This document shows, one piece after another, positions 17,588 to 64,000 of a stretch of 64,000 nt of DNA. Under the pieces are notes generated by a model, which was given only the letters and a program-made list of their open reading frames with translations, searched no databases and was not told where the DNA came from. Position 1 is the stretch's first letter; every line of letters begins with the position of its first letter. The stretch is from positions 5,518,001 to 5,582,000 of the forward strand of contig OZ024747.1 in assembly GCA_964016885.1 (NCBI GenBank). The letters are read 5' to 3'. Source of the stretch: Eledone cirrhosa. Taxonomy: Eukaryota. The position numbers and the translations under genes were made by a program.

Positions 17588-17629
<42 letters not shown>

Positions 17630-17787
17630 AGATCAAAAGATGGTTAAAAGAGTTCCATGTATTTTATTATGCGCATTTCAAAAATAAATATCATCATGGG
17701 ATGATATTTGCGTTCTCATCAGATAAAATAGGGAGACATGATATGAAGCTTAAAAAACACTAGCGAGCAGTGAAGTGTTAAATCAAT

Positions 17788-17938
<151 letters not shown>

Positions 17939-23487: not shown

Positions 23488-23982
23488 CTATACACACACA
23501 CATATATATATATATATACCTATACACACGCACATATATATATATATATACATATATATATACACGGATGTAAAGAATTCGATAAGTGTATTAACCTAGT
23601 TGCTTGCCGTTTTTATTTCCCCCTATCTAATTTATCATCATGACTCCCCCTCTCTCTAACTCATGTTCACTCCCTCTCTCTCCCTTGCCATTCATTTCCT
23701 CAACCTTCCTTCGGTCATCTCCTCCACCTCATTCTCTGCTCCACCCCCTTTCACTTTCTTTATCTATCTATTCCTCACTCTTTCCTCTCTATCTATCTAT
23801 ATCTCTCTCTTTCCTCTCTACCATCTCTCTCTCCTTCACATCTCATTCATCCACCTTCATTTTTATTTCATTTAGTCATTTATCTCTCCTTCACCTTCTC
23901 TTCCTCCCCTCTCTCTCTCACGCTCACTTTCTCTCTTCCTATATATTCCTTGGTTATGTCAACATTTATAAAACACACTTTG

Positions 23983-24044
23983 TATTTTATCTGATGAAAG
24001 CGTACCAAAGTTTTTGGTACGCTTGAAATATATATAATAGAATA
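23983..24044 (+). ncRNA. Type I hammerhead ribozyme (family C), intact core
   Basis: Stem I TATTTTAT/ATAGAATA; CTGATGA 23991-23997; 12-bp stem II AAGCGTACCAAA/TTTGGTACGCTT; GAAA 24025-24028; palindromic stem III ATATATAT; AUA cleavage triplet 24034-24036. Confidence 0.8.
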
Positions 24045-24184
24045 AATATGGTTTTATAAATATAGTTTCAATTTATTTAATATCATTGATCTTTATTTAA
24101 TATCAGAAAAAACTGTCGAGTGCTCTGAATCAGTTATAAACATTTAAATTTGTTGAATTACCAACAAATTGAATATCCCTTCTG

Positions 24185-24252
<68 letters not shown>

Positions 24253-36642: not shown

Positions 36643-38537
36643 ATTTGTGAGCGTGTGCATGCGTGTGTGTATGCGTGAGTGTGAATGTGTGAGTTACAGG
36701 GACTGTATGTGTGTGAGCCGTGTAATAGTGGGCTTAACGGCATGTCTCAGTTGACCCTATTAAATGAACCTCAAGATAGTCTGGAGAGAAGGCAATACCA
36801 AATAAGAGTATTTTCAGTACGGCTTAATGTAAATGGCTTTTTTTCGTGTCTGGGTGCGTTGGTTCTTCGATGACTGTAATTGAAAGAAATGTCTTTTTCC
36901 CAGATACGAGAGGAAAACTACAATTGTACGAAGCCGTTTTGGCAAAATTTAGCATTGATTTGATTAATTAATTAATTACTGGTTCTCAAGAGAAAGTCAA
37001 GACTCATTGATATAGCATTAACAATACCGTAGTTAAAATAGTTTGGAATGAATTGAAAAGAAAAGAAAAGAATTAAATAAAAATATTTGAAGGTCAGCTG
37101 TTTTAAAATAACAACTTGAGAGAAAGACATTCAGATTAGCTGCTATTTTGGGTTTTTTTTCTCTCTCGTGATTATATCTGAAAGGTATGGAAACATCTGT
37201 TATTGAAAGCGTAGAACGACCTAGGAAGCCTCTAGAGTGGTGGAGCGTTCACTGTGGACCTCAGCCCTTTACAAACTTTTATATGTGCGATGTTAATGAT
37301 ATACTTATAGACTAGAGGCAAAAACTAAAACATTTATAAAAAAAAAGTTGCAGCTCTCGGAATTAGATAAAAAAATTTAAAGAATATTAATTGGATAAAT
37401 GTTTTGTTTTTTTAAAATATATTTTCCTTAGTTTTCTTTATCTACATCATCTTTATTATCATCAGCAGTAACAGAGACAGCAATATCACAAGCTAATGAA
37501 GACGCCTCGACAAGGTTACTAGACCTGCTAAAAATAGCAGCAGCTAAATCTCACTTAAATCTTCTCTTAAAGAGTTGACTTGGTGCAAGACAACACGATC
37601 TCTGAACAAAAGTAGAAGCGGTCATGGCTGGAATGCTTTTGATAATATTTCTAATCGATCAGAGTTGATCTAGGAAACAACAACCGCAGCAATCATTATC
37701 ATCATCATCATAGTTGCCAAGGCAAAAACGGCGGAGGTGTATTTAGTTACATCTTAAATCCGGCAAATCTTTTATTACTGATCGAGTCAGACACTTCTGA
37801 GTTCAAATCCCACATAGGAATTGGACGAGGATCCATTGTTAATTAGCCGACCATGAGATCACAACAGATTATGAATGCTGTAAGGGTTGGGAGATGATTG
37901 AGAAAGAGGGAGAATGTTTTGATCTTTAGAGGTTACCGAGAAAATTTCGTATACATTTCGGTCTTGTTAAACCTCTTCAGCAAAATTAGTATTTTAAATT
38001 ATCGCTTTCGTAAGCATAAAAATCAAAGTGAACTTTGGTTAGATTTAAATAAACTAAACAGATATAACTAAACACGGAAAAGTACTTCGAGTTTAGCACT
38101 GTAGTGTTAGTGCAACTTCAGAACGACCATTTTTTTAAATAATGTAAACAGTGAAGCCGAAGACAAAAATGTCGTTTACACAATCTATATACATTCTGTG
38201 AAGTAATAAATGGATTTGATTTCTATTTAAGAATTGGTAGCAAGAAACCAACCTAGAAATGCCACTATTGTCAACACACAAACACGCATGCGCCCATACA
38301 CAGGCACACGAACACACACACGTGCAATAGGACACTCATACGTGCACACATATATGTATGTTTGTATACACAAGCACATACACATACACACAAACAGACA
38401 CACACATATACATACAAACACACACACAAACAAATAAAAAGAAATTAATTCGTACAAAATAAATTGTAGTTTTTCTGTTATTTTTTTCTCGAAAATGTAT
38501 TTTATTTGAATTAATTTCTGTTTCTAGTATATTGTAA

Positions 38538-39822: not shown

Positions 39823-40585
39823 AAGTTTATGACATCACACCTTGAGGGATATCTCTATGCAATACAGGAACAAGAACTCCCTACCAAATATCTGCTGCAC
39901 AAAAGGGGAGGGCCATCAGCTGACAATAAATGTAGGCTATGTAAAACAAAGATCGAGGATGTAAGCCACATTGTTGCCAGCTGCGAAAGAATATCATCTC
40001 GCTACTACCTCCCCATGAGACACGATGGGATAGCTAGAACCATCTGGAACGCACTTCGGAAAACAAAATTAACAACAAACGAGGAAGAATATATTGAGAC
40101 AGATGGCACTAAGGAATACTGGTGGAACCTGAAAATAAAAACTGCCACCAAATTAAAGCACAACCGGCCTGATATTGTAGTTTGGGACCACACATTGAAA
40201 ACGTGTTCTGTTGTGGAGATCAGCTGCCCACTTGATGTAAACGTTGTCAGAAAAATACAGGAGAAGGAGGACATCTACGGACCATTGATGAGGAGTTAAC
40301 AAATCCAGTATCCAAGATACACCTTTAGCTTCATACCCATCATTATTGGAGCCACGGGTTATATACCAACCCGCTTGGACCAAAGTATGACTGAACTTGG
40401 ATTTGCAGACAAAGGGCGCAGCTCCCTAATTCATAGTCTACAAATGGCTGCGATAGCTGGCACCTTCAAAATTTGCAAAATATTCTTGCGATTCAAGGGA
40501 TGACAATTTCTTTTCTTTTACAACCTTGCCACCAGGAAGGTGGCCGGTCAAATAAATATACTCGAAATTAAGAGAAAGAGATAAC
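39823..40585 (+). mobile_element. 3' remnant of an RLE-type non-LTR retrotransposon (R4/Dong-like)
   Basis: AIQEQEL, CCHC finger CRLCKTKIEDVSHIVASC, RHD, and RLE motif HNRPDIVVWD...VVEISCP...K..EK...Y. One in-frame TAA at 40297-40299, then QIQYPRYTFSFIPIIIGATGYIP...KICKIFLRFKG* ending 40503. Short 3' UTR with AATAAA; (TACA)n on both sides. Confidence 0.85.
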
Positions 40586-44534: not shown

Positions 44535-44685
44535 CATGTATGTATGTATAATATAACGTTTTAAATTTGAGCGTCGGTTTTATATGTGATGAATAATGTT
44601 ATATCTCTCAAATTGATATCAAATTTTATTTTTGTATTGAGTACTATGTTGAATATGGTCTTAGTATTCGTTTGACTAGTAACAT

Positions 44686-44723
<38 letters not shown>

Positions 44724-44727
<4 letters not shown>

Positions 44728-61469: not shown

Positions 61470-62144
61470 TTTCAGTAACACGACACATATGTACCACCAC
61501 AGAGTACATCCTAATTAGTCTTAACAAGATGTTCAACAAATGTTTATATAAATTACAATTATGAATGATTTGGAGATTCGACATAAAACTAAATACAGAG
61601 AAAAAATATGGGAAAATTATCAACTTCTGATACACTGTATAAAGGGAAAATATGTGTGTGTCTTTGTGTGTTTGTGTGTGTTTGTGTCTTTGTGTGTATG
61701 TGTGTGTATATTGTGTGTGTCTTTGTGTGTTTGTGTGTGTCTTTGTGTGTATGTGTGTATATTGTGTGTGTGTGTGTGTGTCTGTCTGTGTGTGTCCATT
61801 ACGAATATGACACTTGATAAGTAACTAAAAGCTCATCACAACAGAGTATTTTTCTAGCAAATAATAAATAAATTGAAGAATTGAATAAAACCTAATTCTT
61901 ACGTAATTTATTTTTAAAAAAGTAAGAACACAAAGAAAAAGAAAGAAAGGAAGGGAAGAAGAAAGTAAAATTCCGTTAAAAAAGCAAAAATACTAAAGAT
62001 TGAAACAATAATTGTTTCTACTTTAGGCACAAGGCCAGCAATTATCCCAGTGTATTACTGGTAAACAGTAGCAATAATTGGAATAATAACAGTTGTTATA
62101 TATATTTATGTGTATATATATATATAATGTTATATAAGTTTATA

Positions 62145-62375
62145 TATAAGTAGAAGGAGTATTTAATTTGTTGGAAGTCCAACAAATATAAATGTTTATA
62201 ACTGATTTAGAGCACTCAACAAGTTACTGGAGTAAATATTCAATGATATTAAATAAATGGAAACTATATTTATAAAACCATATTTATTACTCCAGTAACT
62301 TGTTGAGTGCTCTAAATCAGTTATAAACATTTATATTTGTCGGACTTCCAACAAATTAAATACCCCTTCTACTTG
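62145..62375. mobile_element. Family C tail fragments in inverted orientation
   Basis: ~90-bp arms (62145-62233 and 62287-62375) containing gttgagtgct...tcagttataaacattt. Confidence 0.65.
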
Positions 62376-62440
62376 TATATATATATATATATATATATAC
62401 AATATTAAATAAATGGAAACTATATTTATAAAACCATATT

Positions 62441-62506
62441 TATTTCATTATATATATTTCGGGGATATCATATTAACAATATGCTATGCCTTCCTCAGAC
62501 AAAATA
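62441..62506 (-). ncRNA. Type I hammerhead ribozyme (family C), left arm of the 375-bp palindrome
   Basis: Reverse complement of 62664-62729. Confidence 0.65.
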
Positions 62507-62663
62507 CAATATAAACAGTTTTATAGATAAATAGATTCGACATACCGTTATAACACCGACTTCCATTTGAAGAGGTTTAAGCTGCCAGCTTAAACATCTT
62601 CAAATGGAAGTCGGTGTTATAACGGTATGTCGAATCTATTTATCTATAAAACTGTTTATATTG

Positions 62664-62729
62664 TATTTTGTCTGAGGAAGGCATAGCATATTGTTAATAT
62701 GATATCCCCGAAATATATATAATGAAATA
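62664..62729 (+). ncRNA. Type I hammerhead ribozyme (family C), right arm of the 375-bp palindrome
   Basis: TATTTTGT-CTGAGGA-long imperfect stem II (GGCATAGCATATT/AATATGATATCCC)-GAAA-TATATATA-ATGAAATA. Confidence 0.65.
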
Positions 62730-62859
62730 AATATGGTTTTATAAATATAGTTTCCATTTATTTAATATTGTAAATATACTCCAAATATTTGTCGAGTGCT
62801 TTTATATCAGTTATAAATATTTACTAGTTGTAACCCAACAATTTTAAATATAACTTTCC

Positions 62860-62927
<68 letters not shown>

Positions 62928-63399: not shown

Positions 63400-63435
<36 letters not shown>

Positions 63436-63441
63436 TATATC

Positions 63442-64000
63442 AGAGAAGAAATTCCAAACATGGAAGCATGGCCTAGAATCGAAAGGCCTTAAAATTAACC
63501 TGTCTAAGACTAACCTGTCTAAGACTAAAGTTCTAGTTTGTAGGAAGGAAAATAGGGCACTGGTCCCATCTGGGAAATGGCCATGCTCAGTGTGAATGAA
63601 AAAAGTAGGCAGAAACTCCATTTTATGTCCCAAATGCAAAGTATGGGTGCATAAAAGATGTAGTGGGATCGCAGGTAAGCTAACTAAGAACATAGATTTT
63701 ATATGTGGCCGGTGCTCAGGTGCAATAAGTTGCAGCAAGTGCCCACAGAATACTAGCTCATTCCATTGCACAGATGGTTCTATAGAAATAGTGGACACCT
63801 TCCGTTACCTGGGTGACAAAATCAGCAGTGGTGGAGGGTGCTCTGAAAGTACAGTAGCTAGAGTCAGAACGGGATGGAAAAAGTTCAGAGAGCTTATACC
63901 ACTATTGGCCGCTAAAGGTTTCTCTCTAAAAATGAAAGGCAGGCTGTATGATGCCTGCATACGAACAGCAATGTTACATGGCAGTGAGACTTGGGCATTG
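63442..64000 (+). mobile_element. Second, decayed 5'-truncated copy of the RTE LINE (runs off window)
   Basis: Aligns to the first copy from 46283 (EKKFQTWKHGLESKGLKIN...FRYLG...MLHGSETWAL). 15-bp tandem duplication at 63496-63525; TGT>TGA stop at 63593-63595; starts directly after (TA)n. Confidence 0.93.

What the first reader, a model, noticed from the sequence alone, without database searches (positions are those of the whole stretch)
23983..24044. Family C hammerhead: constant core with a fully replaced but still paired stem II
Seen: copies at 23983 (+), 47668 (-), 62664 (+) and 14452 (-) share stem I and CTGA(T/G)GA; the first three also keep GAAA-TATATATA and the AUA site. Stem II differs: AAGCGTACCAAA/TTTGGTACGCTT, AAGCGCACCA/TGGCTGCCCTT, and GGCATAGCATATT/AATATGATATCCC. 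Structure kept under sequence turnover is the best within-window evidence for a selected ribozyme. Stem III is itself a (TA)4 run, the same sequence as the insertion target.
Basis: partly seen in the sequence, partly recalled or inferred. Interest (0 to 1): 0.75.

Follow-up and report, generated by a model that had tools for sequence, protein, structure and literature searches.

The report
Hydra-Penelope hammerhead with unpaired cytosine
This is the cut-short end of a known kind of animal jumping gene (a Hydra-clade Penelope-like element) carrying a predicted self-cutting hammerhead RNA; its stem II does change in compensating pairs between families, but the perfect 12-pair stem seen here is a rare mutant, because tens of thousands of sister copies keep one cytosine unpaired, which likely matters for the ribozyme's fold or control.

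Summary
The hammerhead at 23983-24044 is real, with the cut site after A24036. It is the end-repeat (pLTR) ribozyme of a Hydra-clade Penelope-like retrotransposon. The window copy is a 245-bp 5'-truncated stub inserted in (TA)n; full units of 3.5-3.7 kb with RT and endonuclease lie elsewhere in the genome.

Its description does not. Stem II is homologous rather than replaced, and it is not fully paired. Position 4 is C.C in 52,517 copies and C-G in only 256; the window copy is one of these mutants. The 5' C is invariant and unpaired in 14 of 14 lineages. Stem III is a dimer-type palindrome that covaries (ATATATAT to ATGCGCAT), so its likeness to the (TA)n target is incidental. Only 2 of 99 copies begin near the cut, so templates were mostly uncut or rejoined.

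Hammerheads in Hydra elements are published. I did not find the unpaired C in print. This scan noted both before, on other DNA of this genome. No cleavage was tested.

The parts
23942..24186 (+). 5'-truncated 3' end (pLTR plus tail) of a Hydra-clade Penelope-like element, family A; lacks the upstream start motif and the ORF
   Evidence: 92.8% identical over 250 nt to copy L007; longer copies carry the endonuclease about 1.15 kb upstream
23964..24061 (+). Extended stem I: outer 11-bp helix (23964-23974 with 24051-24061), internal loop, inner 8-bp helix (23983-23990 with 24037-24044)
   Evidence: MFE fold, z -3.74, 1 of 200 shuffles as good; predicted
23991..23997 (+). Hammerhead core CUGAUGA
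   Evidence: sequence; 74 of 79 parsed copies identical
23998..24024 (+). Stem II, here 12 bp; position 4 (C24001 with G24021) is C.C in the family
24025..24036 (+). GAAA, palindromic stem III (ATATATAT, 24028-24035) and predicted cut 3' of A24036
   Evidence: sequence; covaries to ATGCGCAT in family E; energies
24089..24186 (+). Tail between the two fixed 3' ends (24088 and 24186); the first conserved hairpin (ACTC...GAGTGC) has lost its 5' arm in this copy, the second (24149-24168) is intact
24187..24249 (.). (TA)n insertion target
47616..47995 (.). Family B fold-back stub: hammerhead 47733-47668 (-), partial inverted arm with tail 47800-47995 (+)
62392..62860 (.). Family C fold-back stub: hammerheads 62664-62729 (+) and 62506-62441 (-), centre near 62585
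14443..14594 (-). B-like stub, hammerhead 14557-14494 with GAAA lost (dead core)
17625..17790 (-). Family E stub, hammerhead 17730-17660 with stem III ATGCGCAT and C.T at stem II position 4

Best explanation
The motif is the type I hammerhead in the end repeat (pLTR) of a Hydra-clade Penelope-like retrotransposon, left here as a truncated and likely dead stub in a (TA)n run, and it is predicted to cut only as a dimer. Shown: family A, B and C hammerheads flank RT-plus-endonuclease ORFs in units of 3.5-3.7 kb; copies end at two fixed points about 50 and 150 nt behind the cut; helices covary between lineages; stem II keeps an unpaired C at position 4. Inferred: transcription likely starts about 120 nt upstream of the cut. 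A lone hammerhead cannot close stem III, so it would stay uncut until a second copy (the next pLTR) pairs its palindrome, and cutting would then release unit-length RNA. The element's enzyme would nick (TA)n and start copying at either tail end, mostly on RNA that is uncut or rejoined. The unpaired C is likely (about 55%) the stem II half of a contact with the internal loop of the extended stem I, which tunes cutting.
For: Family link: A-type hammerheads follow the endonuclease in long copies and flank a whole ORF in L405 (hammerheads at 4534 and 8065); B does so in L419 (558 and 4234); C-type arms enclose ORF parts in L414-L418 and L420. Clade motifs RW[R/K], DKT, CxCX5C, CxxC and CxH are present and CCHH is absent, as defined in PMC8557442 section 11. 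Covariation. Position 4: paired in 2 of 79 parsed copies and 0 of 14 lineages. Genome counts are C.C 52,517, C-G 256 and C.A 2,719, the last mostly one amplified lineage among the 100 rows listed; family E has C.T. Listed C-G copies are scattered over all lineages. Dimer: closing stem III in a monomer costs 2.9 kcal/mol; the dimer fold is -39.4 against -32.6 for two open monomers; the two innermost stem III pairs, which only a dimer can form, covary. Template: 2 of 99 copies start within 10 nt of the cut; 33 of 99 start at the ACTATCC motif. Precedent: uncut RNA is the main substrate for an anole Penelope in vitro (PMC11167929).
Against: No cleavage or expression data. No partner base for the C is conserved on the stem I side across families, by my reading of the flanks. 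A second stem II position (A7-U) is also invariant in 12 of 12, so some invariance may be simple inheritance. The lineages are related, so covariation counts overstate independent events. The 99-copy sample needed an exact match from the first base after the cut, so copies trimmed by a few bases there were missed; the window has one such piece starting 4 nt past the cut (62288). The start site is inferred only from 5' ends. Pfam gave only a sub-threshold GIY-YIG hit for 1 of 3 proteins. The family A and B ORFs seen are decayed.
Confidence: 0.8

Rival explanations
1. The unpaired C is a recognition point for the element's own protein (or a host factor), not an RNA-RNA contact; the ribozyme would be protein-assisted.
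For: The partner base is free (C, U, A) while the 5' C is fixed; no conserved partner is seen in stem I. The anole Penelope hammerhead cuts only with the element's protein (PMC11167929).
Against: The proteins of these families are only about 50% identical in RT yet the C is unchanged. The position matches where stem II usually meets stem I in hammerheads (PMC3088659 passages describe such contacts; the exact spacing is recalled).
Confidence: 0.25
2. The C.C is inherited from one ancestor and has no function; only the core and overall pairing are selected.
For: All lineages are related; A7-U is similarly invariant; published Hydra hammerheads lack it and work without it as far as sequence shows.
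Against: Pairs on both sides switched repeatedly (G-C, A-U, U-A), the partner changed to U and A but not G in any of 14 lineages, although C-G would stabilise the stem by 6.3 kcal/mol and arises sporadically (256 copies).
Confidence: 0.15
3. The short stubs are a self-propagating non-autonomous retrozyme-like element moving through circular RNA, rather than by-products of the autonomous family.
For: Very many short copies; family C fold-backs are 96-100% alike over 301 nt at 40 of 40 places scored; retrozymes derive from Penelope pLTRs (bioRxiv 10.64898/2026.07.22.740005).
Against: Copies are not tandem two-hammerhead units; 5' ends vary (41 of 99 shorter, 21 of 99 longer than the start motif); the same sequence runs on into ORFs; fold-back centres differ and 9 private changes are mirrored in both arms against 10 in one arm (29 of 30 loci scored), as expected if each palindrome forms at insertion.
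Confidence: 0.15
4. The stem III (TA)4 exists because it matches the (TA)n target and helps priming or integration.
For: Same sequence as the target in families A, C, H and J; a few copies join the target there (L354, L397).
Against: Family E has TGCGCA and B-type lineages TATGTA, both self-complementary, and both sit in (TA)n. Copy 3' ends lie 50 or 150 nt downstream, not at stem III.
Confidence: 0.04

Closest known systems
Hydra clade of C-terminal EN+ Penelope-like elements, including Hydra-1_Obim (Craig et al. 2021, PMC8557442; passages, sections 3 and 11, supplement part 2 and passages read)
   Same: RT then GIY-YIG-type endonuclease; RWK/DKT/CxCX5C motifs, no CCHH; (TA)n targets; pLTR with hammerhead, tail and inverted 5'-truncated arms. 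The Hydra-1_Obim protein shown has the same motif series by eye.
   Different: Units are 3.5-3.7 kb with a long 3' UTR (published ones are mostly under 3 kb); RWR in A, B and C. None of the 26 Hydra rows in File S2 shows, by eye, 3 pairs then an unpaired C then a long stem II; their stem III mostly has 3-4 pairs. The Hydra-1_Obim hammerhead is a different sequence.
[quoted passage not shown]
   Same: Type I fold, palindromic weak helix III, larger than usual helix II, many families per genome with compensating changes, dispersed truncated copies and opposite-strand pairs.
   Different: No bulged base between A9 and the first pair and no fixed G10.1-C11.1 (A-U, G-U, G-C, U.U and A.C all occur); stem I is long and extended; invariant unpaired C inside stem II.
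Poseidon element PAc of the green anole (Frangieh et al. 2024, PMC11167929; parts 1-2 of 4 read)
   Same: Two fixed 3' ends bounding a tail; AT-rich target; copies made from uncut RNA.
   Different: Different clade; there the ORF starts inside the hammerhead, here about 190-250 nt behind the core; the tail here is about 95 nt.
Metazoan non-LTR retrozymes (PMC7229834, passages; bioRxiv 10.64898/2026.07.22.740005, part 1 of 5)
   Same: Non-coding stretch with a type I hammerhead, related to Penelope pLTRs.
   Different: Retrozymes are head-to-tail repeats with a hammerhead in each unit; these stubs are single or fold-back and continue into ORFs in longer copies.

Membership tests
Type I hammerhead ribozyme | Core CUGANGA, GAAA, UH cut site in a three-way junction | tested here: met
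Type I hammerhead ribozyme | Three helices supported by covariation | tested here: met
   stem I 5 of 8, stem II 8 of 9, stem III 2 of 4 pairs change on both sides (12 related lineages)
Type I hammerhead ribozyme | Match to an Rfam hammerhead model | tested here: inconclusive
   none among the 150 of 737 matches shown, which were almost all microRNA models on microsatellites
Type I hammerhead ribozyme | Self-cleavage at the predicted site | not testable with these tools
   needs in vitro transcription
Dimer-type Penelope hammerhead | Palindromic, unstable helix III | tested here: met
Dimer-type Penelope hammerhead | Bulged base after A9 and G10.1-C11.1 (min-HHR consensus of PMC4209133) | tested here: not met
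   first pair is A-U 5, G-U 4, G-C 2, U.U 2, A.C 1 of 14; it works like a min-HHR but is not that consensus
Hydra-clade PLE | Single ORF, RT then C-terminal endonuclease, flanked by pLTRs with the hammerhead | tested here: met
   L405 family A, L419 family B; decayed copies; family H
Hydra-clade PLE | RWK and DKT motifs | tested here: met
   RWK in H; RWR in B and C, RCR in the one decayed A copy; DKT in H, B, C
Hydra-clade PLE | CxCX5C linker, no CCHH, CxxC and CxH at the end | tested here: met
   translations of A, C, H
Hydra-clade PLE | Insertion in (TA)n, tail, inverted arms | tested here: met
Hydra-clade PLE | Placement in the Hydra clade on an RT tree with the published set | not tested
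   published proteins compared by eye only
Non-LTR retrozyme | Tandem non-coding repeats each with a hammerhead | tested here: not met
   no tandem array at these loci; sequence continues into ORFs
Neptune-clade PLE | Shares pLTR with a Neptune-type ORF | tested here: not met
   Neptune-like ORFs found carry other end repeats

The most novel reading that the evidence does not exclude
These Hydra lineages use a previously undescribed hammerhead architecture in which an obligatory unpaired cytosine at stem II position 4 docks on the extended stem I (or on the element's protein) and, with the palindromic stem III, gates cutting so that the first end repeat stays uncut until the second is made. 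The genome's 52,517 C.C copies and 256 natural C-G mutants would then record selection against a 'more perfect' ribozyme and give a ready test of what Penelope hammerheads are for.
Probability: 0.35. Interest if true: 0.55.

Novelty: new variant of a known kind. Interest (0 to 1): 0.3.

Why it matters
The role of hammerheads in Penelope-like elements is an open question: they cut slowly, some clades lack them, and cutting was not needed for insertion in the one in vitro system (PMC8557442, PMC11167929). Lineages whose RTs are 50-80% identical keep an active-looking core, a covarying dimer palindrome and one unpaired base, which says the ribozyme is selected in replicating elements and points to one cheap mutational test. 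The finding as filed is otherwise ordinary transposon debris, and the practical lesson is that this particular copy is the wrong one to assay.

Tried and rejected
Rfam scan: swamped by microsatellite matches, uninformative. ORF in the window as partner: no Penelope ORF recognised among 227 frames, read by eye. Neptune-like and Poseidon-like ORFs from a GIY-YIG search (150 matches) as partners: their end repeats, where found, are unrelated; hammerheads of this family near them are separate insertions. A second Hydra family (J) has no hammerhead of this type behind its ORF in 30 of 30 loci, apart from 2 inserted B-type stubs. My first idea, a purely non-autonomous element, was dropped when long copies with ORFs appeared. 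A-to-G editing footprint: no strand excess of A>G over T>C in private changes for 5 of 7 sample sets, an excess in C (7 against 4) and weakly in P (2.5 against 2.0 per 1000), so not supported here. An intron around the hammerhead (GGTATG ... CCAG) was considered; untested. Free cofolding of two copies did not give the active dimer as the minimum (-41.7 for another fold, against -39.4). Lunse et al. 2017 (PMC5785218), on Penelope hammerhead variants, was not held and could already describe this variant. Paper searches that found no report of the unpaired C.

Full report
Observation. The window is G000:C7:5518001-5582000 of a 3.0-Gb, (TA)n-rich animal genome. At 23983-24044 the sequence reads as a type I hammerhead: stem I TATTTTAT/ATAGAATA, core CTGATGA, a 27-nt stem II hairpin, GAAA, TATATATA, with N17 at A24036. 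The other copies named are present: 62664-62729 (+), 47733-47668 (-) and 14557-14494 (-), the last with GAAA destroyed. There are also inverted arms (62506-62441, 47800-47849) and a fifth lineage at 17730-17660. The motif is far above chance. Stem I extends by an internal loop and 11 more pairs.

What the element is. The 29 other best-matching loci are short units ending in (TA)n, often with an inverted arm. An exact 33-nt match to the sequence just behind the cut occurs 12,205 times. I took 99 distinct copies from 90 loci covering the first 100 listed places. Of these, 61 end about 50 nt behind the cut in a TA or TG run, 34 carry the further tail and 4 were unclear. A search with the upstream flank of one longer copy gave copies that run on into an endonuclease ORF about 1.15 kb upstream (24 of 30 loci could be oriented). 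L405 holds a family A unit of 3,531 nt between two hammerheads, and L419 a family B unit of 3,676 nt. C-type fold-backs enclose ORF parts. A sister family H has the same hammerhead plan and tail, and near-complete ORFs. The proteins have RW[R/K], DKT, CxCX5C, CxxC and CxH and lack CCHH, which is the definition of the Hydra clade in PMC8557442 section 11. That paper lists (TA)n targets and hammerheads for the clade and includes an octopus member. RT identity is 69-80% among A, B and C and about 50% to H. The window copy is a 245-bp stub without start motif or ORF, and its first tail hairpin is broken.

Stem II. The stems are homologous: 9 of 10 identical on the 5' arm between 23983 and 47733 or 14557, and 7 of 10 with 62664. 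Counting from the core, I compared 14 lineage representatives. They came from 329 copies in 41 clusters; I kept clusters of 3 or more copies, dropped 2 as decayed family A and added one 2-copy cluster. Positions 1-9 without 4 are 91% paired, against 70% when 3' halves are shuffled (0 of 5000 as high) and 28-51% when slid. On a MAFFT alignment of 12 natural copies, 8 of 9 stem II pairs change on both sides; the ambiguous family I and one F lineage were not in it. Relatedness inflates these numbers, but the switches G-C, A-U and U-A at positions 3, 5 and 6 are plain.

Position 4 is the exception. It is paired in 0 of 14 lineages, with the 5' C invariant and the partner C (11), T (2) or A (1). 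In the unbiased sample it is C.C in 69 and paired in 2 of 79 parsed copies (20 of 99 did not parse). Genome-wide the pattern gives 52,517 C.C, 256 C-G and 2,719 C.A, the last dominated in the listed rows by one amplified short-stem lineage; C.T was not counted genome-wide. Listed C-G copies are spread over all lineages. The window copy is such a mutant (1 of 30 loci), with a stem 6.3 kcal/mol more stable than the family form. Inserted copies show no special protection of the core (2.1% against 1.9% per site, 53 of 99 scored under a filter that caps mismatches), so selection acts on replicating masters.

Stem III. Closing it in a monomer costs 2.9 kcal/mol. The 8-nt palindrome can pair between two copies, giving -39.4 against -32.6 kcal/mol for two open monomers, though free cofolding preferred another fold (-41.7). 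ATATATAT becomes ATGCGCAT in family E and ATATGTAT in B-type lineages, all self-complementary; the two innermost pairs can only form in a dimer. This matches the dimer model of PMC4209133 and makes the likeness to the (TA)n target incidental.

How it likely works. Shown: 33 of 99 copies begin at an ACTATCC motif about 120 nt before the cut, 21 extend further, 41 are shorter and 4 lie in between; only 2 of 99 begin within 10 nt of the cut. Fold-back arms share private changes (9 mirrored, 10 in one arm; 29 of 30 loci) and differ in their centres. Inferred: ACTATCC is the transcription start. Copying starts at either tail end, as in the anole element where the tail lies between two start sites and uncut RNA is the main template (PMC11167929). 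Run-off from the first pLTR would give the many short stubs. The hammerhead would cut only when a second copy is at hand, releasing unit-length RNA. For the unpaired C I favour a contact with the stem I loop (about 55%) over protein recognition (about 25%) or inheritance without function (about 15%); none is tested.

Comparison and novelty. Hammerheads in Penelope and Hydra pLTRs, dimer palindromes, family diversity and fold-backs are published. The invariant unpaired C was not seen in the 26 Hydra rows of File S2 nor found by my searches; Lunse et al. 2017 and the supplements of PMC4209133 were not seen and may bear on this. Earlier notes of this scan report the Hydra link, the tail hairpins and the unpaired C on other DNA of this genome.

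Noticed in passing
window 37943-37987 (-): A separate hammerhead-like motif (7-bp stem I, CTGAAGA, 5-bp stem II, short stem III) unrelated to this family.
   Followed up: no
window 44676-47195 (+): An 839-aa open frame of a non-LTR retrotransposon RT (RTE-like by recall); a fragment of it recurs near 63400-63800.
   Followed up: no
window 39850-40299 (+): C-terminal part of a retrotransposon with a zinc knuckle and restriction-like endonuclease motif (label recalled).
   Followed up: no
window 62144-62378: Small fold-back made of a family A-type tail only; the longer arm starts 4 nt past the predicted cut site.
   Followed up: partly
window 54018-54130 (+): Tail-only fragment of another family with the ACTC...GAGTGC hairpin, ending in (TA)n.
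   Followed up: no
window 24089-24186; L238:3400-3550; L419:700-810: The tail holds a bulged hairpin (ACTC...2-nt bulge...GAGTGC) kept with changed inner pairs across many families, and a similar one is visible in the published Hydra-2_Amil end. In full elements the sequence behind the tail can pair back with it just before the start codon.
   Followed up: partly
L121:652 and 5631 (-): A full Neptune-like element whose two end repeats carry a U3-A8 hammerhead variant, with two fixed 3' ends and (TA)n target.
   Followed up: partly
L405:4380-4460; L419:425-480: An ATTTGCAT octamer lies about 50 nt upstream of the ACTATCC start motif in families A and B; possible promoter element.
   Followed up: no
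L137:5780 (-): A hammerhead-like motif on the opposite strand 180 nt upstream of a family E hammerhead, also with an unpaired C after three stem II pairs.
   Followed up: no
L061-L090: Among private changes mirrored in both arms of family C fold-backs, 4 of 8 are A-to-G on the sense strand; too few to call RNA editing.
   Followed up: partly
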